A DNA stretch of 64,000 nucleotides from a virus, in the IMG/VR virus record IMGVR_UViG_3300045988_175595, positions 101,597 through 165,596 of that record; one strand, 5' to 3'. Below are positions 547 to 8,424 of this stretch, piece after piece. How positions within the stretch are numbered: position 1 is the stretch's first letter; every line of letters starts with the position of its first letter. The notes below the pieces were generated by a model. It was given only the letters and a program-made list of their open reading frames with translations. It was not told where the DNA came from and did not search any database. Both the position numbers and the translations under genes were made by a program.

Positions 547-620
547 TTTTCTTTATTATACCTCCCCCATAATAATATAAAAAGCCAACTATCTATTAAT
601 AGCTGACTTTTATTAATTGA

Positions 621-699
621 AGCATGTAGTTGGATTCGAACCAACGATGATAAAACGGTTTTGCAGACCGTTGCCTTCGGCCATCTGGGCTATACATGC
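621..699 (-). tRNA. tRNA-Cys (anticodon GCA), unusual 9-nt variable region
   Basis: Reverse-complement cloverleaf: acceptor gcatgta/tacatgc, anticodon stem acggt/accgt with loop ctgcaaa, T-arm gttgg-ttcgaat-ccaac. Confidence 0.55.
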
Positions 700-959
700 A
701 TAATAAATTAGACTTATTTTAACGTTGTCTTACCACTTGACTATCTTATATTTTAATAAGAGTAGGAATCTAACCTACGTCTACGGCTTGGAAGGCAAAT
801 CTATGCTGTTAAAGTCTAAGAAAATTATGTAAATCAAGACTCTAATGTGTTCTCCAAATAGAACGTAATATAAAAATTGACTGTATTAAAGGAATTGAAT
901 CTTAACAAAAATTTTGCTGTAAGAGTCTTAACTGTATAATAAATAAAAAGAGATTACTA

Positions 960-1090
960 AATAAAACAAGACATTATTTTCTAATGCTCTCCCAACTGAG
1001 CTATATATGTTAATACATATACTAGGATTCGAACCTAGAACCATTCGCTGTATAAGGCGTAGTTATTTGCTGTTAATGTCTTCTATGTAT
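960..1090 (-). ncRNA. Candidate Y-RNA-like (YrlA-type) ncRNA: a circularly permuted tRNA-like module (T-arm, closed acceptor hairpin, D-arm) enclosed by a long-range stem
   Basis: The minus-strand read is T-arm ctagg-ttcgaat-cctag, then tatatgt-atta-acatata (a 7-bp acceptor-like stem closed by a 4-nt loop), then ta-gctcagttgggagagc (a canonical D-arm). These are flanked by complementary segments aagacatta (1075-1083) and taatgtctt (966-976). The element lies about 450 nt downstream of the TROVE/Ro60-like gene. Confidence 0.4.
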
Positions 1091-1535
1091 GTTCTTTAAT
1101 TTATTCCTATATTTTTAATATTTACTATAAAGAAGAGGGGGAATTACTAACTAGACGATATAATAACTCTTATTTATAAAATATTAAATCTATATAGAAT
1201 AAATTAAAGACTCTTTTGTTTCAATATCGAATTAATTCTTTTTGTAGTATTGTTTTTTATTCTTCATTATTTTTAAATCAAATTTTGCTGTTATCGTCTA
1301 AATTTGGGGTTGATGCCATACATAAAAAATTTGTCTTAATAAAAACAATATATAATAAAAAACTAGGTTCTATAAAACATTTACCCTTAATGTATAAATA
1401 ATTGCTGTTAGAACCTATACTTTTATTAACTAATTAAATAACTAGACTCAATTAGAGATCGATTAAAAGTCGATTGCAAACCTGCGATTAATTGCTGTAT
1501 GAGTCTATATAAAATATAAGCTATTAAAGAAAGTT

Positions 1536-3092
1536 TTAAACTGTTATACAGTTATATCTTTTTTTACCTATTACTTTCATCATAAGCTCGTAAGCTCCTA
1601 CGAATTGATTCTGTAATAAAGTTTCAAAAAGAACTGGATTTGAACCAGATACTAATTGAACTCCAGCATCATTCATAGTCATAGGAATGTTATCTCGTCT
1701 TGAATTAACATTCCAGAATACAAGACCTGGCATTTCATATCCAGCTCTATTAAACTTTTTCTTAATAGTATCAAAAAGAGTTTTTTGTTGAGCATTACTC
1801 ATAGGAGTTTCTCCCCATCTACTTCCATTTGATAAACTATTACATGTAGAACATAAATCAAATTCCATATCTGATATAATAAATATCTTACTAGGAATTT
1901 CATCTTGACTTAATTTATTCTTAATAGCTACATTAAGAATTAAATCAAATGTAGCTTCAATGTTAGTAGATCCACCCCAATCTGCTCTTTCCATATATTT
2001 AACTTTTTCGTATAAGTTAGATCCAATTATTTCTACTAATTTTGGATTACTACTAAATGTTAAGAAATGGTTTTTGAATGGACCATTACTTCTTTCAGCT
2101 AAATATAATGCTAAAGAAATAGCAACTTGCATTGGAGTACCACACATACTTCCTGATACATCTGCTACAGCAATACTATTTGAAGTATCGTCTTTAATAT
2201 AATCAGGTAAAGCTTTCCACATGGCTTCCATAAGAGTTTTAGTTTCTTCAGAAACTCTATAGTCTTGAAGTTTTCCTATGATTTCATATGGAAAAAGAGT
2301 TTTAGCATTTACTTTTACAGTTTCATCTTCTTTCTTTAAGCTATTAAGATAAGCAGTATATCTTTCTTCATCATGCTTTAAGAAAGCCTGTCTATAGTTC
2401 ATTGCAGCCTTAGCTGGTAATGAACTATAATCAATTTTTCCATATTCTCCATTAGTAATTTTTGTTTCAACAATATTTATTTTCTTTCTTAAATAAGAAA
2501 GAGTTTTTCTATATTGTCTAGGAGATAATCCTAACTTAGAAGCTGTAATTCTAGCTAATTGTCTACTTTTTTGAGATGAAGTATTTTCTGACTTTAACCA
2601 CTTAGCTAATAAGCTAGGAAATTCTGCAGTTTTATCTGCTTCTAATTGTTCACGTATTACTTTTATTGCTTCATCTTGTAGCTTAGTACCAAATAGGCAA
2701 TAAAGATCGTCCCATCTTCCGAATTCAGGGATTAAGTGAATATTCTTTTTGACAACTTCTGGAGCTTTAATAGCTAAATGATTAATAAGTAATTTAAATA
2801 CTTCTCTTTCTCCTTGGCCGCCTCTAACATCTCTTGAATAAAATAATATTTTAAGAGCTAACAATGGATCTTCAGCATAAGCTTTATCGAACATACTATA
2901 AACTCTATTTTTATCTAAAATATTAAGCACTTCTTTAGCATTTTTTGCATTTTTATTTCTTAATGCACAACCTTGAGCAAAATAATCTAATACATAACTT
3001 AAAGAAGTCTTATGTGTAACTGCTCCATTTTCTGTTGTAGTATAATTAGTTTCGTTTTTTAATCCATTTAAAAAATTGTTTGACATAATCAT
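1536..3092 (-). CDS. Ro60-like TROVE + von Willebrand A domain protein (DUF2828 family; Rsr-like)
   Basis: The 518-aa ORF has the conserved N-terminal motif FYSRDVRGGQGER typical of the DUF2828/TROVE-like family. The C-terminal vWA domain has a MIDAS-like motif DVSGSM and a downstream ISDMEFD. Confidence 0.55.
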   Translation of the reverse strand: MIMSNNFLNGLKNETNYTTTENGAVTHKTSLSYVLDYFAQGCALRNKNAKNAKEVLNILDKNRVYSMFDKAYAEDPLLALKILFYSRDVRGGQGEREVFKLLINHLAIKAPEVVKKNIHLIPEFGRWDDLYCLFGTKLQDEAIKVIREQLEADKTAEFPSLLAKWLKSENTSSQKSRQLARITASKLGLSPRQYRKTLSYLRKKINIVETKITNGEYGKIDYSSLPAKAAMNYRQAFLKHDEERYTAYLNSLKKEDETVKVNAKTLFPYEIIGKLQDYRVSEETKTLMEAMWKALPDYIKDDTSNSIAVADVSGSMCGTPMQVAISLALYLAERSNGPFKNHFLTFSSNPKLVEIIGSNLYEKVKYMERADWGGSTNIEATFDLILNVAIKNKLSQDEIPSKIFIISDMEFDLCSTCNSLSNGSRWGETPMSNAQQKTLFDTIKKKFNRAGYEMPGLVFWNVNSRRDNIPMTMNDAGVQLVSGSNPVLFETLLQNQFVGAYELMMKVIGKKRYNCITV

Positions 3093-3211
3093 TTCTCTCC
3101 TCTTTTTTACTAGACAGATTGTCTATTATTTTAATTTCGTTACCAGTAAAATCAATAATAAATATTATTTGCTGTAACTGTCTAAAAAAACTAGATATAA
3201 AAATACCTAGT

Positions 3212-6863: not shown

Positions 6864-6995
6864 TATACCCCCCAAATACTAGACACATCAATAATAAGTT
6901 ATTCCCAAAAACATTTAACTATTAACATAAAAATTGCTGTATGTGTCTATATAGATTAAAAATGATCAATAAACTTTTAATTTTAATACTTAAAA

Positions 6996-7072
6996 TGGTC
7001 AGGGATATAGGATTTGAACCTATGACTTCGAGACCCCAAAGCTCGCGCTCTACCATACTGAGCTAAACCCTG
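6996..7072 (-). tRNA. tRNA-Pro (anticodon TGG), CCA encoded
   Basis: D gctc-agtatggta-gagc, anticodon loop tttgggg, T-arm atagg-ttcaaat-cctat, 3' atccctg-a-cca. Confidence 0.55.
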
Positions 7073-7079
7073 ATATTAT

Positions 7080-7165
7080 TGGTGGGAAGGGTGGGATTCG
7101 AACCCACAATGTATCTTACGTTACGGTTTTACAGACCGCTTGCTTCACCTTTTGCATACCCGCCC
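7080..7165 (-). tRNA. tRNA-Tyr (anticodon GTA), type II, CCA encoded
   Basis: Anticodon gcggt-ctgtaaa-accgt, long variable arm, T-arm gtggg-ttcgaat-cccac, 3' ccttccc-a-cca. Confidence 0.6.
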
Positions 7166-7260
7166 ATATTTACAAATAAGTGTTAACTGATTGATTCTAA
7201 GTATACAAGCTTAAAAATATTTTGTCAACACTTATTTGTAAAAAATATGAAAAATTTTTA

Positions 7261-8382
7261 TTAATTTGCTTTAAAATTATAAATTGGTTTAATTATTTTT
7301 ACAATATCAACTGTATCTTTAATATTGTTTATAATTTCTTCTGAAGGTTTATATGCACCTTTAGATTCGTCTATTGTTGCATTATTACAAGTTGAACTAA
7401 AAATATTATTTTCTTTCATTGCATTAATATCATCTTCAACTTTTAACAATTCTTTAGCTTTAGAACGGCTCAAGATTCTACCTGCACCATGAGGAGCAGA
7501 ATAATTCCAATCTGGATTTCCTTTTCCTATAGCTATTATGCTACCATCTATTCTATTTAATGGTATTATTACTTTTTCTCCTTTTTTTGCAGATATAGCT
7601 CCTTTTCTTAATATTTTATTAGCTAAATCTATATAGTTATGAATTGTTGTAAAATGACTTTCTTCTTCCCAATTCATTTTATTGATTATAGTATCTGCAA
7701 TAGCCTCTCTATTAAATTGAGCATAAGCTTGTGCTATACCCATATCGTAAAGATAATTTTTTAAATTATCTCCTTGTAAATAGCATAAGGCTTTTGGAAC
7801 TTTATTTATTTTCGGATCATCATTTATTTCTTTAATAGCTAAATTTTGATAATATTCAGCTATTTGTTTTCCTAAACAACTTGATCCAGAATGTATAACT
7901 AAATATATATTATTTTCTGAATCTTTGTTCATTTCTATAAAATGATTTCCTCTACCTAATACACCTATAGATTTTTTTGCTATGTCTATATTTATATTAG
8001 ATTTACATTTTAATAGAGATAAATCTACATATTTATTATATGGATGTTCTTTATCTCTTATATTGGTTCCGTTAGGGATATATTGTTTTATACATTCATC
8101 TACTTTCTGTAAATCAATGTCCTCTAGTTTTTGTTTTAATTTTACTACAAACATTCCACAACCTATATCACTTCCAACTAAATTAGGAGTAACTTTGTCA
8201 TCGATTGTCATTGTAGTTCCTATTGTACACCCCGCGCCTGCATGTGTGTCTGGCATAATCTTTATAACAGAATTTTTATATGCCTCTTGATTACACAATT
8301 CAATAATTTGTGATATTGCCTCTTGGTCTATATCAAATGTATAAACTAAAGCAGTATTATATTGTCCTTGTAAAGGTATCAT
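7261..8382 (-). CDS. rtcB: RNA 3'-phosphate/5'-OH ligase RtcB (compact 373-aa form)
   Basis: Motifs MPDTHAGAGCTIGTT, GRGNHFIE and HSGS match the RtcB metal- and GTP-binding signatures. Confidence 0.8.
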   Translation of the reverse strand: MIPLQGQYNTALVYTFDIDQEAISQIIELCNQEAYKNSVIKIMPDTHAGAGCTIGTTMTIDDKVTPNLVGSDIGCGMFVVKLKQKLEDIDLQKVDECIKQYIPNGTNIRDKEHPYNKYVDLSLLKCKSNINIDIAKKSIGVLGRGNHFIEMNKDSENNIYLVIHSGSSCLGKQIAEYYQNLAIKEINDDPKINKVPKALCYLQGDNLKNYLYDMGIAQAYAQFNREAIADTIINKMNWEEESHFTTIHNYIDLANKILRKGAISAKKGEKVIIPLNRIDGSIIAIGKGNPDWNYSAPHGAGRILSRSKAKELLKVEDDINAMKENNIFSSTCNNATIDESKGAYKPSEEIINNIKDTVDIVKIIKPIYNFKAN

Positions 8383-8424
8383 TTAATAACACCTCTTTCT
8401 ATTTTTTATTTCATTTATAAGCTA

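What the first reader, a model, noticed from the sequence alone, without database searches (positions are those of the whole stretch)
600..8400. Phage-borne Rsr(Ro60)-like protein + candidate Y RNA + RtcB next to a tRNA island: a putative RNA repair/quality-control module
A TROVE+vWA protein (1536-3092, Ro60/Rsr-like, DUF2828 signature FYSRDVRGGQGER) sits about 450 nt from a tRNA-like noncoding element (960-1090), and an RtcB RNA ligase (7261-8382) lies on the far side of about 22 tRNA genes. In bacteria, rsr, the Y-RNA genes (yrlA/yrlB) and rtcB/rtcA are genetically linked, for example in the Salmonella rsr-yrlBA-rtcBA operon. This window looks like a phage version of that arrangement with an expanded tRNA island. 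It could serve to protect or repair phage and host tRNAs against anticodon nucleases, although that is my inference.
Basis: partly seen in the sequence, partly recalled or inferred. Interest (0 to 1): 0.85.

Follow-up and report, generated by a model that had tools for sequence, protein, structure and literature searches.

The report
Phage Ro60-like protein with many Y-like RNAs
A jumbo phage encodes a distant relative of the Ro60 RNA-quality-control protein, flanked and interleaved with about 19 tRNA genes and 15 small structured RNAs that share one conserved "stem + ACAGCAA" module and often mimic parts of tRNAs. This RNA family recurs next to the same protein in very different phages and appears to be undescribed.

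Summary

Each has a 7-10 bp closing stem of variable, compensating sequence, followed at fixed spacing by ACAGCAA. The interiors vary. Two are YrlA-like, one is a D-arm plus anticodon-arm, and one is a tRNA-Lys(UUU) anticodon-stem-loop mimic.

The same module sits beside DUF2828 genes in most of 83 phage loci. These include E. coli Felixounavirus HY02, Listeria LP-048, Mycobacterium phage Faith1 (no tRNAs nearby), Campylobacter NCTC12673, Sinorhizobium phiM7 and Bacillus 2S-4. It is absent from the tRNA/stable-RNA region of phage T5.

RtcB is linked in only 2 of 83 loci, so the rsr-yrlBA-rtcBA operon analogy is weak.

Best reading: a DUF2828-type Ro60/Y-RNA system whose RNA-recognition motif (CAGCAA) differs from the canonical (G)NCGAA. 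Phage Ro60/Y-RNA pairs are already known, so this is a new variant of a known kind.

The parts
1536..3092 (-). Ro60-like protein of the DUF2828 + DUF7788 (vWA/MIDAS) family, 518 aa
968..1082 (-). It has a closing stem AAGACAUUA/UAAUGUCUU, then ACAGCAA, then a small anticodon-like hairpin, a T arm, a capped acceptor-like hairpin and a D arm. This is a circularly permuted tRNA mimic of YrlA type.
   Evidence: Rfam YrlA 36.4 bits, below the gathering score of 69. MFE fold. Seed of model R1 at 124.7 bits. Covariation across 40 homologues.
709..818 (-). Y-like RNA 15, a second permuted tRNA mimic. T loop is UUAGAUU and the D arm is AGUCAAGUGGUAAGAC. It sits in a stem-ACAGCAU module directly upstream of tRNA-Cys.
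   Evidence: R1 score 85.9 bits. Weak Rfam tRNA hit at 754-810.
836..929 (-). Y-like RNA 14 (stem AAGACUC/GAGUCUU + UUACAGCAA)
   Evidence: R1 score 28.3 bits.
1152..1300 (-). Y-like RNA 12 (stem UAGACGA/UCGUCUA + UAACAGCAA), with a long AT-rich interior
1364..1417 (-). Y-like RNA 11 (stem UAGGUUC/GAACCUA + UAACAGCAA), the shortest copy at 54 nt
   Evidence: R1 score 26.6 bits.
1443..1507 (-). Y-like RNA 10 (stem UAGACUC/GAGUCUA + AUACAGCAA). Its interior hairpin AUCGA-CUUUUAA-UCGAU mimics the tRNA-Lys(UUU) anticodon stem-loop. It starts 28 nt after the stop codon of the Ro60-like gene.
3111..3184 (-). Y-like module 9 in the 5' leader of the Ro60-like gene. Its 3' arm ends 18 nt before the ATG, just upstream of the GAGGAG ribosome-binding site.
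   Evidence: The same position is conserved in related loci: 34 elements end within 100 nt upstream of the gene.
3488..3592 (-). Y-like RNA 8. The stem-UUUCAGCAA module encloses a D arm plus an anticodon arm (loop CUGAUAA) and has no T arm.
   Evidence: Rfam tRNA 23.8 bits at 3480-3548. R1 score 29.3 bits.
3706..3851 (-). Y-like RNA 7 (stem AAGACAC/GUGUCUU + AUUCAGCAA)
3990..4056 (-). Y-like RNA 6, filling the spacer between tRNA-Leu and tRNA-Gln
4257..4350 (-). Y-like RNA 5
4355..4445 (-). Y-like RNA 4
5289..5357 (-). Y-like RNA 3 (stem UAGGUUC/GAACCUA)
5731..5822 (-). Y-like RNA 2 (variant motif AACCAGCAA)
6880..6949 (-). Y-like RNA 1, between tRNA-Pro and tRNA-Glu
3401..7165 (-). tRNA island. 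It holds 17 ARAGORN tRNA genes, one more called by Rfam (4848-4915), and sub-threshold tRNA-like hits at 4675-4740, 4773-4831 and 5090-5181.
621..699 (-). tRNA-Cys(GCA), the last gene of the unit
580..611 (-). Intrinsic-terminator-like hairpin (14-bp stem followed by a U-rich tail) closing the unit
7200..7228 (-). Sigma-70-type promoter-like site TTGACA-17-TATACT (11/12), between RtcB and the first tRNA. A second site, TTGGCA-18-TATAAT, lies at 6439-6468.
   Evidence: This is a consensus match only.
7261..8382 (-). RtcB-family RNA ligase, 373 aa, with catalytic motifs intact. It is adjacent, but only loosely linked to the Ro60-like module in other phages.
   Evidence: Pfam 8.9e-61. PHROG 1075 at 8.5e-130. 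Motifs. Linked in only 2 of 83 loci.
9528..9890 (-). Small HAD-fold protein, possibly a polynucleotide 3'-phosphatase-like enzyme. The assignment is weak.
   Evidence: Pfam HAD_SAK_2 at 2.8e-4, below the cut-off. PHROG 23773 at 3.6e-19 and a weaker PHROG 415 'polynucleotide kinase' hit at 5.4e-6.

Best explanation
The region 580-7228(-) is one phage transcription unit. It encodes a DUF2828-type structural homologue of Ro60/Rsr, about 19 tRNAs and 15 Y-RNA-like small RNAs.

Every one of these RNAs has the same 'handle'. The 5' and 3' ends pair in a 7-10 bp stem whose sequence is free to vary, and exactly three nucleotides after the stem comes single-stranded (A)CAGCAA. An A-rich strand and a conserved unpaired G lie on the 3' side.

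I propose (inferred) that this handle is the binding site of the Ro60-like protein. It would be the counterpart of the stem plus GNCGAA / GGUCCGA motif that canonical Ro60 proteins recognise on Y RNAs.

The variable interiors act as effector modules:
- a complete circularly permuted tRNA (YrlA-like; two copies here);
- acceptor-less tRNA bodies;
- isolated anticodon stem-loop mimics (for example tRNA-Lys UUU);
- simple hairpins.

The elements fill inter-tRNA spacers. RNase P and 3' processing of the neighbouring tRNAs would therefore release them as stable 50-150-nt RNAs (inferred). One copy sits in the leader of the protein's own mRNA next to the ribosome-binding site, which suggests feedback control (inferred).

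The resulting RNPs would present tRNA-like surfaces to tRNA-handling enzymes. They could recruit them, titrate them or decoy them, and the enzymes could be host PNPase, processing or modification enzymes, or anticodon nucleases. RtcB is an occasional, not obligatory, companion.
For: Shown:
- Ro60 fold.
- There are 15 elements with fixed geometry, all on the gene strand and only within 709-6949 of the 64-kb window. All of them form the closing stem in unconstrained MFE folds.
- In 80 metagenomic phage loci with 39-49% identical proteins, 239 of 720 CAGCAW sites on the gene strand have a 7-bp stem at the exact offset. The comparison figures are 63 of 640 on the opposite strand, 29 of 377 after block shuffling, and 67-84 at wrong offsets.
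- Element density is 0.54/kb within 1.5 kb of the gene, 0.12/kb further away and 0.043/kb on the other strand.
- Reverse test: of 44 viral-contig matches to AAGACACNNACAGCAA that have the complementary arm, 19 have a DUF2828 gene in the stored stretch, all on the same strand, at a median distance of 367 nt. Of 79 matches without the arm, only 2 do (Fisher p 1.8e-8).
- The handle is found next to the gene in isolates from four bacterial phyla, including Faith1, whose locus has no tRNA.
- The covariance model of the YrlA-like variant gave 312 hits, all on the gene strand. In 40 homologues 91.9% of pair cells are paired, against 61.8% after shuffling and 38-44% when the structure is slid. Compensatory changes occur in 23 of 24 pairs.
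- tRNA-type hairpins are enriched in the interiors. Of 97 short elements, 15 carry a CUNNNAA loop on a stem of at least 4 bp, against 0 on the reverse complement and a mean of 0.26 in shuffles.
- The tRNA/stable-RNA region of T5 has no such element, and no DUF2828 homologue was found in the 50 kb examined.

Precedent: Ro60 proteins bind Y RNAs that are encoded next to them and share a short 5' motif (PMC4201824). A phage Ro60 binds two upstream stem-bulge RNAs and host PNPase (PMC12135203).
Against: - No binding data exist, so protein-RNA pairing is inferred from genomic association only.
- 27 of 83 loci have no strict-definition element within 1.5 kb of the gene.
- 25 of the 44 stem-bearing motif hits have no DUF2828 gene in the stored stretch. 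These hits lie in 23 loci, 20 of which are tRNA islands. The elements therefore also track tRNA arrays, and the gene may be far away or absent in those phages.
- The relationship to Ro60 is undetectable by sequence.
- Fifteen partners for one protein is far more than in any described Ro60 system.
- The covariation alignment was fitted to the model.
- The T5 negative control is a single phage, and only 50 of its 122 kb were examined.
Confidence: 0.6

Rival explanations
1. This is a phage version of the bacterial rsr-yrlBA-rtcBA RNA-repair operon. The Ro60-like protein, one Y RNA and RtcB work as one unit to reseal tRNAs cut by host anticodon nucleases.
For: - RtcB is intact and adjacent on the same strand.
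- A weak HAD/PNK-phosphatase-like gene lies nearby.
- Listeria phage LP-048 has the order tRNA island, DUF2828, RtcB, DUF1768, RNA ligase, HAD.
- Jumbo-phage surveys list RtcB, RNA ligases and ROT/TROVE proteins as RNA-repair gear (PMC7824862).
- The Y-like RNAs carry anticodon-loop mimics of classic nuclease targets such as Lys-UUU.
Against: - RtcB is within 6 kb of the DUF2828 gene in only 2 of 83 loci.
- Here RtcB lies upstream of the promoter-like site that starts the tRNA/Ro-like unit.
- No RtcA or RtcR was found among the window ORFs scanned (the scan was not exhaustive).
- Canonical Ro60 function is RNA surveillance and decay with PNPase, not ligation.
Confidence: 0.2
2. The stem-CAGCAA elements are punctuation of polycistronic tRNA transcripts. 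They would be folding insulators or processing signals read by a host RNase, with no dedicated link to the DUF2828 protein.
For: - In the window they fill inter-tRNA spacers.
- 20 of the 23 loci that have elements but no visible DUF2828 gene are tRNA islands.
- 64 of 83 DUF2828 loci contain tRNAs.
Against: - The elements sit directly beside the gene in loci without any tRNA, namely Faith1, L009, L025, L028 and L046.
- One copy is conserved in the gene's 5' leader.
- The motif is identical in phages of Actinobacteria, Firmicutes, Alpha- and Gammaproteobacteria and Campylobacter, whose processing RNases differ.
- The tRNA island of T5 lacks the motif.
- The stems are too short (7-10 bp) for RNase III.
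Confidence: 0.12
3. The module is primarily a cis-regulatory leader, giving translational feedback on the DUF2828 mRNA. The extra copies would be duplicated leaders with no function as free RNAs.
For: - A copy lies just 5' of the ribosome-binding site here and in many loci.
- In Vibrio phage nt-1 the 3' arm of the stem contains the start codon.
Against: - Most copies are far from any start codon, or lie downstream of the gene (Faith1, HY02).
- Many copies carry elaborate, covarying tRNA-like inserts, which a leader would not need.
- This reading is compatible with the main explanation rather than an alternative to it.
Confidence: 0.06
4. The elements are DNA-level features: repeats, MITE-like inverted repeats, or promoter/terminator pairs.
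For: - The 5' half UAGACA resembles a -35 hexamer, and one promoter-like match overlaps element 9.
- The elements are repeated 15 times.
Against: - The arms differ between copies but stay complementary, which is not expected of transposon ends.
- Strand specificity is strict.
- In GC-rich phages the arm is UGGACGC and similar, with no -35 likeness.
- There is no U-tract after the 3' arm.
- Promoter-like sites are not enriched in the region: 44 found against 51 expected.
Confidence: 0.02

Closest known systems
Bacterial Rsr (Ro60) with YrlA/YrlB Y RNAs (Salmonella, Mycobacterium smegmatis; Chen et al. 2014, PMC4201824; Rfam RF02553)
   Same: - A ring-shaped HEAT-repeat plus vWA protein.
- ncRNAs encoded within a few hundred nt on the same strand.
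- All partner RNAs share a short 5'-proximal motif beside a terminal stem.
- One partner contains a T arm, a capped acceptor-like hairpin and a D arm in permuted order.
   Different: - The protein belongs to Pfam DUF2828/DUF7788, not TROVE. It has about 10-12% identity to Ro60 and the relationship is detectable by fold only.
- The shared RNA motif is (A)CAGCAA at a fixed 3-nt distance from a 7-bp stem, instead of GNCGAA(N)G.
- The Rfam YrlA score is 36 bits, against the 69 required.
- There are 15 partner RNAs rather than 1-4, and they are interleaved with tRNA genes.
- There is no RtcR/sigma-54 control.
Thermus phage phiLo Ro60 (phiRo60) with Yrl1/Yrl2 (Hu et al. 2025, PMC12135203; PDB 9l5y)
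   Same: - Y-like RNAs lie just upstream of the gene.
- Each RNA consists of a 5'-3' stem flanking a bulge that carries a short conserved motif.
   Different: - phiRo60 is annotated as a TROVE protein and is not found by sequence search with the window protein or its family profile.
- Its RNAs carry CGAA, there are two of them, and no tRNA-like domain or tRNA island is reported.
- Binding to the RNAs and to PNPase was shown experimentally there. Nothing has been shown here.
Salmonella rsr-yrlBA-rtcBA RNA repair operon (Hughes et al. 2020, PMC7790460)
   Same: A Ro60-like gene, Y-like RNA genes and RtcB lie on one strand within 7 kb.
   Different: - No RtcA or RtcR was found.
- RtcB lies outside the apparent promoter-to-terminator unit.
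- RtcB linkage is not conserved (2 of 83 loci).
Stable small RNAs of unknown function in phage tRNA clusters (T5 RNAI, RNAIII, RNAIV, RNA1, RNA2 'tRNA-like stable RNA', as annotated in NC_005859)
   Same: Small structured RNAs with paired 5' and 3' ends, some of them tRNA-like, are interspersed with phage tRNA genes on the same strand.
   Different: - The T5 RNAs lack the stem-CAGCAA handle.
- No DUF2828 homologue was found in the first 50 kb of T5 that were examined.

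Membership tests
Ro60/Rsr (Pfam TROVE PF05731 + vWA) | Significant match to the TROVE sequence model or to Ro60 sequences | tested here: not met
   There is no TROVE hit at E<=0.1. phmmer and a 44-sequence profile against all PDB sequences find no Ro60.
Ro60/Rsr (Pfam TROVE PF05731 + vWA) | Fold consisting of an alpha-helical HEAT-repeat ring closed by a C-terminal vWA domain with a MIDAS motif | tested here: met
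   [not shown]
Ro60/Rsr (Pfam TROVE PF05731 + vWA) | Partner ncRNA genes adjacent on the same strand | tested here: met
   15 elements lie within 3.9 kb, and six of them are within 830 nt downstream. The arrangement is conserved in related loci.
Ro60/Rsr (Pfam TROVE PF05731 + vWA) | Binds Y RNA and misfolded RNA; forms a complex with PNPase | not testable with these tools
   Requires biochemistry.
YrlA (Rfam RF02553) | Covariance-model score at or above the gathering score of 69 bits | tested here: not met
   36.4 bits in the window. Homologues score 49.2 bits (L046) and 43.8 bits (L048). Nothing is found at E<=0.01 in Faith1 or HY02.
YrlA (Rfam RF02553) | tRNA-like domain with a T arm, then a capped acceptor-like hairpin, then a D arm, enclosed by a terminal stem | tested here: met
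   Covariation occurs in all five helices.
YrlA (Rfam RF02553) | Located within 4 kb of the Ro60 gene on the same strand (criterion of Chen et al. 2014) | tested here: met
   It lies 454 nt downstream of the stop codon, on the same strand.
YrlA (Rfam RF02553) | GNCGAA(N)G motif near the 5' end | tested here: not met
   The 5' motif is ACAGCAA. Only an internal AGCGAAUG precedes the T arm.
RtcB RNA ligase (Pfam PF01139) | Family HMM match together with the metal-binding Asp/Cys/His residues and the His nucleophile | tested here: met
   Pfam 8.9e-61. Aligned motifs against PDB RtcBs. NCBIfam equivalog cut-offs are not reached (146 against 407), so this is a divergent, short RtcB.
rsr-yrlBA-rtcBA type operon | Conserved co-occurrence of RtcB (and RtcA/RtcR) with the Ro60-like gene | tested here: not met
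   RtcB is within 6 kb in 2 of 83 loci. No RtcA or RtcR was seen among the window ORFs scanned (the scan was not exhaustive).

The most novel reading that the evidence does not exclude
The stem-CAGCAA handle is a modular display scaffold. A phage Ro60-like protein loads a whole library of RNAs, each presenting a different tRNA sub-domain: a full permuted tRNA, an acceptor-less tRNA body, or a bare anticodon stem-loop of Lys-UUU, Asn-GUU, Tyr-GUA and so on. The RNPs would act as decoys or sensors for host tRNA-targeting defences such as anticodon nucleases (PrrC, RloC, PARIS, retron effectors), or as sponges for tRNA-processing enzymes. If so, this would be a previously unrecognised, widespread RNA-based counter-defence, carried by hundreds of cultured phages (711 GenBank records encode the protein). 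It would also give the first functional handle on the DUF2828 family, which is annotated in plants as well.
Probability: 0.2. Interest if true: 0.85.

Novelty: new variant of a known kind. Interest (0 to 1): 0.62.

Why it matters
Ro60/Y-RNA particles are a conserved but still poorly understood RNA-surveillance system, and phage versions have only just begun to be studied (one TROVE-type case in 2025).

This window suggests that the far more common phage 'RNA-binding protein' family, DUF2828/PHROG 850, is a second Ro60-fold lineage with its own RNA recognition code. The family occurs in 711 GenBank phage records and has at least 8000 homologues. It is found in Felixounaviruses, P100-like Listeria phages, Twort-like Staphylococcus phages, cluster L mycobacteriophages and T4-like Vibrio and Aeromonas phages.

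The code can be stated precisely: a 7-bp stem, three nucleotides, then CAGCAA. It is easy to mutate, and it occurs in genetically tractable phages, so the protein-RNA pairing and its role in tRNA biology or anti-defence become directly testable.

The finding also gives a candidate explanation for some of the unannotated spacers in phage tRNA islands, and it provides a search rule for annotating these RNAs.

Tried and rejected
- **Sequence-level link to TROVE/Ro60.** Pfam, NCBIfam, and phmmer and profile searches against PDB sequences gave nothing. Only fold comparison shows the relationship.
- **A known Rfam family for the repeated elements.** An E<=10 scan of 1-11000 and an E<=0.01 scan of five related loci gave only tRNA or YrlA partial hits. 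The RAGATH-18 hit at 10182-10246 is an unrelated structure.
- **Close relatives of the window among cultured phages.** megablast found only a 56-nt match, so the comparisons rest on distant relatives.
- **YrlA hits at 7047-7109 and 6140-6201.** Rejected as tandem-tRNA junction artefacts, where the T arm of one tRNA is read with the D arm of the next, as Chen et al. warn.
- **My first regex for a T arm followed by a D arm.** It mostly returned such tandem tRNAs.
- **RtcB and HAD co-occurrence as a conserved module.** Rejected. RtcB is present in 2 of 83 loci, and the HAD protein gave no hit in any fetched locus.
- **Promoter or terminator explanation of the repeats.** Rejected (and the GC-rich homologues).
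- **Literature.** There are no papers on DUF2828 function. Burroughs & Aravind 2016 and the 2020 Wolin review could not be read. The supplementary phage table of Chen et al. is not held.
- **Not done.**
  - Scanning the remaining 72 kb of T5.
  - Scanning a TROVE-type phage as a second negative control.
  - A separate covariance model for the bare handle.

Full report
**What is in the region**

All features of the finding lie on the minus strand.

ORF 1536-3092 (518 aa) matches Pfam DUF2828 (1.7e-30) and DUF7788 (1.9e-52). Its vWA matches are sub-threshold and it has no TROVE match. It belongs to PHROG 850 'RNA-binding protein' (1.4e-146).

ORF 7261-8382 is an RtcB-family ligase (Pfam 8.9e-61; PHROG 1075). 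It has the MPDTH, DIGCG, GNHF, IHSGS and HGAGR motifs aligned to solved RtcBs.

ARAGORN finds 17 tRNA genes between 3401 and 7165, plus tRNA-Cys at 621-699. Rfam adds one at 4848-4915 and several sub-threshold tRNA-like hits.

A near-consensus sigma-70-type promoter-like site (TTGACA-17-TATACT, 7228-7200) lies between RtcB and the first tRNA. A 14-bp terminator-like hairpin (611-580) follows tRNA-Cys. The tRNA island, the Ro60-like gene and the RNAs described below therefore look like one unit, with RtcB just upstream of it.

The window is part of a jumbo phage. An identical protein occurs on a 245-kb contig. The window also carries an endolysin, NAD-salvage genes and AAA ATPases. No close cultured relative was found.

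**Is the protein Ro60-like?**

Not by sequence. Pfam, NCBIfam, and phmmer and profile searches against all PDB sequences find no Ro60 or TROVE.

By fold, yes. An AlphaFold2 model built on 44 homologues has pLDDT 87.3 and pTM 0.88.
- The six best Foldseek matches in the PDB are Xenopus and human Ro60 and Deinococcus Rsr, aligned over the whole length (E 9e-9 to 1e-5).
- The MIDAS residues (D311, S313, S315, T376, D408) are invariant in the family.

The family is large. It has at least 8000 homologues and occurs in 711 GenBank phage records from many genera. SEA-PHAGES already annotates some of these as 'Ro-like RNA binding protein'.

Rfam's YrlA model matches 960-1069(-) over its full length, at 36.4 bits against a gathering score of 69 (E 4.7e-5 in 11 kb). 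The sequence shows the following, in order:
- a 9-bp terminal stem (AAGACAUUA/UAAUGUCUU);
- a small hairpin with an anticodon-like loop;
- a T arm (CUAGG-UUCGAAU-CCUAG);
- a closed 7-bp hairpin in the place of the acceptor stem;
- UA followed by a D arm (GCUC-AGUUGGGA-GAGC).

This is the circularly permuted tRNA architecture of YrlA. A second copy with the same architecture lies at 709-818.

I built a covariance model from these two and six homologues from other phage contigs. It gave 312 hits at E<=1 in 1.04 Mb, every one on the DUF2828 gene strand. Forty hits have E<=3e-6, including Mycobacterium phage Faith1 (60.7 bits) and E. coli phage HY02 (48 bits). Sinorhizobium phage phiM7 (62.5 bits) and Bacillus phage 2S-4 (59.6 and 59.3 bits) also hit.

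On the 40-sequence alignment, 91.9% of pair cells are standard pairs. The figure is 61.8% after shuffling and 38-44% with the structure slid by 1-3 columns. Compensatory double changes occur in 23 of 24 pairs, and all five helices covary. The caveat is that the alignment was fitted to the model.

Rfam's YrlA does not reach threshold on any of these homologues (49.2 and 43.8 bits at best).

The terminal stem of the YrlA-like RNA is followed by ACAGCAA, and this handle recurs. Anchoring only on CAGCAW and asking for a 7-bp complement to positions -10 to -4 finds 15 elements on the minus strand between 709 and 6949. It finds nothing comparable elsewhere in the 64 kb; the only other minus-strand hit is an AT-only stem, probably chance.

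The arms differ between copies (UAGACAC, UAGGUUC, UAGAUGU, AAGACAU, UAGACGA and others) but each is perfectly complementary to its partner. Unconstrained MFE folds form every closing stem.

The elements occupy the inter-tRNA spacers, the 5' leader of the Ro60-like gene (3111-3184, ending 18 nt before the ATG) and the 830 nt downstream of it. Interiors vary:
- two permuted tRNAs;
- one exact tRNA-Lys(UUU)-type anticodon stem-loop (AUCGA-CUUUUAA-UCGAU, 1443-1507);
- AT-rich hairpins.

**Is the handle real and linked to the protein?**

In 80 metagenomic phage loci chosen only for encoding a 39-49% identical protein, 239 of 720 CAGCAW sites on the gene strand have the stem at the exact offset. The comparison figures are 63 of 640 on the opposite strand, 29 of 377 after block shuffling, and 67-84 when the arm is taken 3-12 nt out of register.

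The consensus from 198 distinct copies is W-A-G-R-C-N-C-n-n-A-CAGCAA at the 5' side, then an A-rich strand, the 3' arm G-N-G-Y-C-U-W, and a G. Median length is 75 nt.

When those loci are pooled with three cultured-phage loci (83 in all), element density is 0.54/kb within 1.5 kb of the gene, 0.12/kb further away and 0.043/kb on the other strand. Thirty-four elements end within 100 nt upstream of the gene start.

Strict-definition copies flank the gene in these cultured phages:
- E. coli Felixounavirus HY02: four copies, among tRNAs.
- Listeria LP-048: three copies, directly upstream.
- Mycobacterium phage Faith1: three copies, directly downstream, with no tRNA in the locus.
- Campylobacter NCTC12673: two copies, directly upstream.
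- Sinorhizobium phiM7.
- Bacillus 2S-4.

In Vibrio phage nt-1 a 6-bp version encloses the ribosome-binding site and start codon.

The reverse test scanned viral contigs for AAGACACNNACAGCAA. It gave 123 matches, of which 44 have GTGTCTT within 280 nt (chance expectation about 2%). Nineteen of those 44 have a DUF2828 homologue in the stored stretch, always on the same strand, at a median distance of 367 nt. Only 2 of the 79 matches without the arm do (odds ratio 29, p 1.8e-8).

The remaining stem-bearing hits fall in 23 loci, 20 of which are tRNA islands. The elements therefore track tRNA arrays as well, and for those contigs I could not tell whether the gene lies further away.

As a negative control I examined the first 50 kb of phage T5. 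This stretch holds its whole tRNA region with eight annotated 'stable RNAs of unknown function'. It has no such element and no DUF2828 homologue.

**tRNA pieces as cargo**

Other loci carry handles that enclose acceptor-less tRNA bodies (L030 2355-2456, L006 920-1051, L041, L070).

Of 97 short elements (<=72 nt), 15 contain a hairpin with a 7-nt loop CUNNNAA on a stem of at least 4 bp. None is found on the reverse complement, and shuffles give a mean of 0.26 (maximum 3). Six of the 15 are the Lys-UUU loop CUUUUAA.

Over all 198 elements, tRNA-type 7-nt-loop hairpins occur in 28%, against 4% in shuffles.

**Interpretation**

Shown: a Ro60-fold protein; a structured, covarying RNA family with a fixed stem-CAGCAA handle; strong, strand-specific genomic association between the two across phages of at least four bacterial phyla; and frequent tRNA-derived cargo.

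Inferred: the handle is the protein's binding site. It parallels the short 5' motif (GNCGAA(N)G, GGUCCGA) next to a terminal stem that canonical Ro60 proteins contact on all their Y RNAs (PMC4201824). It also parallels the stem-bulge-CGAA RNAs bound by the phiLo phage Ro60 (PMC12135203).

Further inferences:
- tRNA processing releases the elements.
- The leader copy gives feedback control.
- The RNPs present tRNA-like surfaces to host or phage tRNA-handling factors.

The decoy or anti-anticodon-nuclease idea is attractive because of the anticodon-loop mimics, but it is untested.

Phage Ro60 homologues with adjacent Y-like RNAs are established:
- 22 phages in Chen et al. 2014, which searched TROVE-annotated proteins only.
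- Biochemistry for phiLo in 2025.
- Jumbo-phage surveys that list RtcB, RNA ligases and ROT/TROVE proteins as RNA-repair equipment (PMC7824862).

The general idea is therefore known.

The specific operon analogy is weak. RtcB lies within 6 kb of the DUF2828 gene in only 2 of 83 loci. By contrast, tRNAs are present in 64 of 83 loci, and 445 of 454 of them are co-oriented with the gene.

What appears new is the following:
- The DUF2828 lineage has its own handle motif.
- The number of partner RNAs is large.
- The partner RNAs carry modular tRNA-fragment cargo.

I found no Rfam family and no paper describing this. However, two key reviews could not be read, and the literature tool covers open-access text only.

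**Verdict**

This is a new variant of a known kind, of moderate-to-high interest because it yields a precise, testable RNA-protein pairing rule for a very common phage protein family of unknown function.

Noticed in passing
window 10182-10246 (-), with ORFs 10293-11465 (-) and 11437-11907 (-): There is a full-length RAGATH-18 RNA (Rfam RF03064, 69.2 bits against a gathering score of 44.9). It lies 47 nt downstream of a transposase-like ORF (PHROG 506) that is preceded by a serine-recombinase-type transposase (PHROG 6620). This looks like an IS607-type tnpA/tnpB insertion, with the RNA in the position of a TnpB guide-RNA scaffold. It is inserted close to the RNA-repair-like genes of the phage.
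   Followed up: partly
window 36206-36958, 37510-38979, 39718-40530 and 14859-15464 (all -): An NAD-salvage gene set: NAD synthetase, nicotinamide phosphoribosyltransferase, ribose-phosphate pyrophosphokinase, and a NUDIX hydrolase elsewhere in the window. It may be an NAD-reconstitution counter-defence cluster.
   Followed up: no
window 3212-3355 (-): A 47-aa Cys-rich ORF (MRSKRSKLYQHAGCVDCKKDCIFRGNKAAEETEGEKFGCNSSKIKIV) with a strong GAGGAG ribosome-binding site sits inside the tRNA island, between tRNA-Lys and the leader element of the Ro60-like gene. It is followed by a weak AU-rich hairpin plus a U7 tract (about 3190-3215), which could be a terminator that the scan missed because the stem has fewer than 3 GC pairs.
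   Followed up: no
L206 (phage T5, NC_005859) 30284-33949: The T5 tRNA region is annotated with eight 'stable RNAs with unknown functions', three of them tRNA-like. Several have paired 5' and 3' ends like the elements here, but they lack CAGCAA. They may be the partner RNAs of some other, unidentified protein.
   Followed up: partly
L207 (Vibrio phage nt-1) about 2950-3010: The 5' UTR of the DUF2828 gene has GACAUU-AUA-CAGCAA, then the Shine-Dalgarno sequence, then AAUGUC. The 3' arm of the handle contains the AUG, so the geometry is suited to translational autoregulation.
   Followed up: partly
L090 (IMGVR_UViG_GVMAG-M-3300017963-53_000001) 157-714 (-): Three tandem 50-nt stem-CAGCAA elements alternate with tRNA genes at the end of a contig binned as a giant-virus MAG. 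No DUF2828 gene is present in the 11 kb available.
   Followed up: no
window 5090-5181, 4773-4831 and 4675-4740 (-): Sub-threshold tRNA-like sequences: a type-II or Sec-like hit at 39.6 bits against 47, and hits at 28.9 and 20.4 bits against 29. They lie in spacers that lack a CAGCAA handle and may be decayed tRNAs or further tRNA mimics.
   Followed up: no
window 4954-5009: This was the only megablast match to cultured phages (89% over 56 nt, Yersinia phage fHe-Yen9-04, annotated there as tRNA-Asp). Neither ARAGORN nor Rfam calls this window stretch a tRNA.
   Followed up: no
window 58866-63875 (-) and 31224-32756 (-): A 1669-aa ORF has no PHROG match. A 510-aa SPFH/flotillin-domain protein is also present, which is unusual cargo for a phage.
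   Followed up: no
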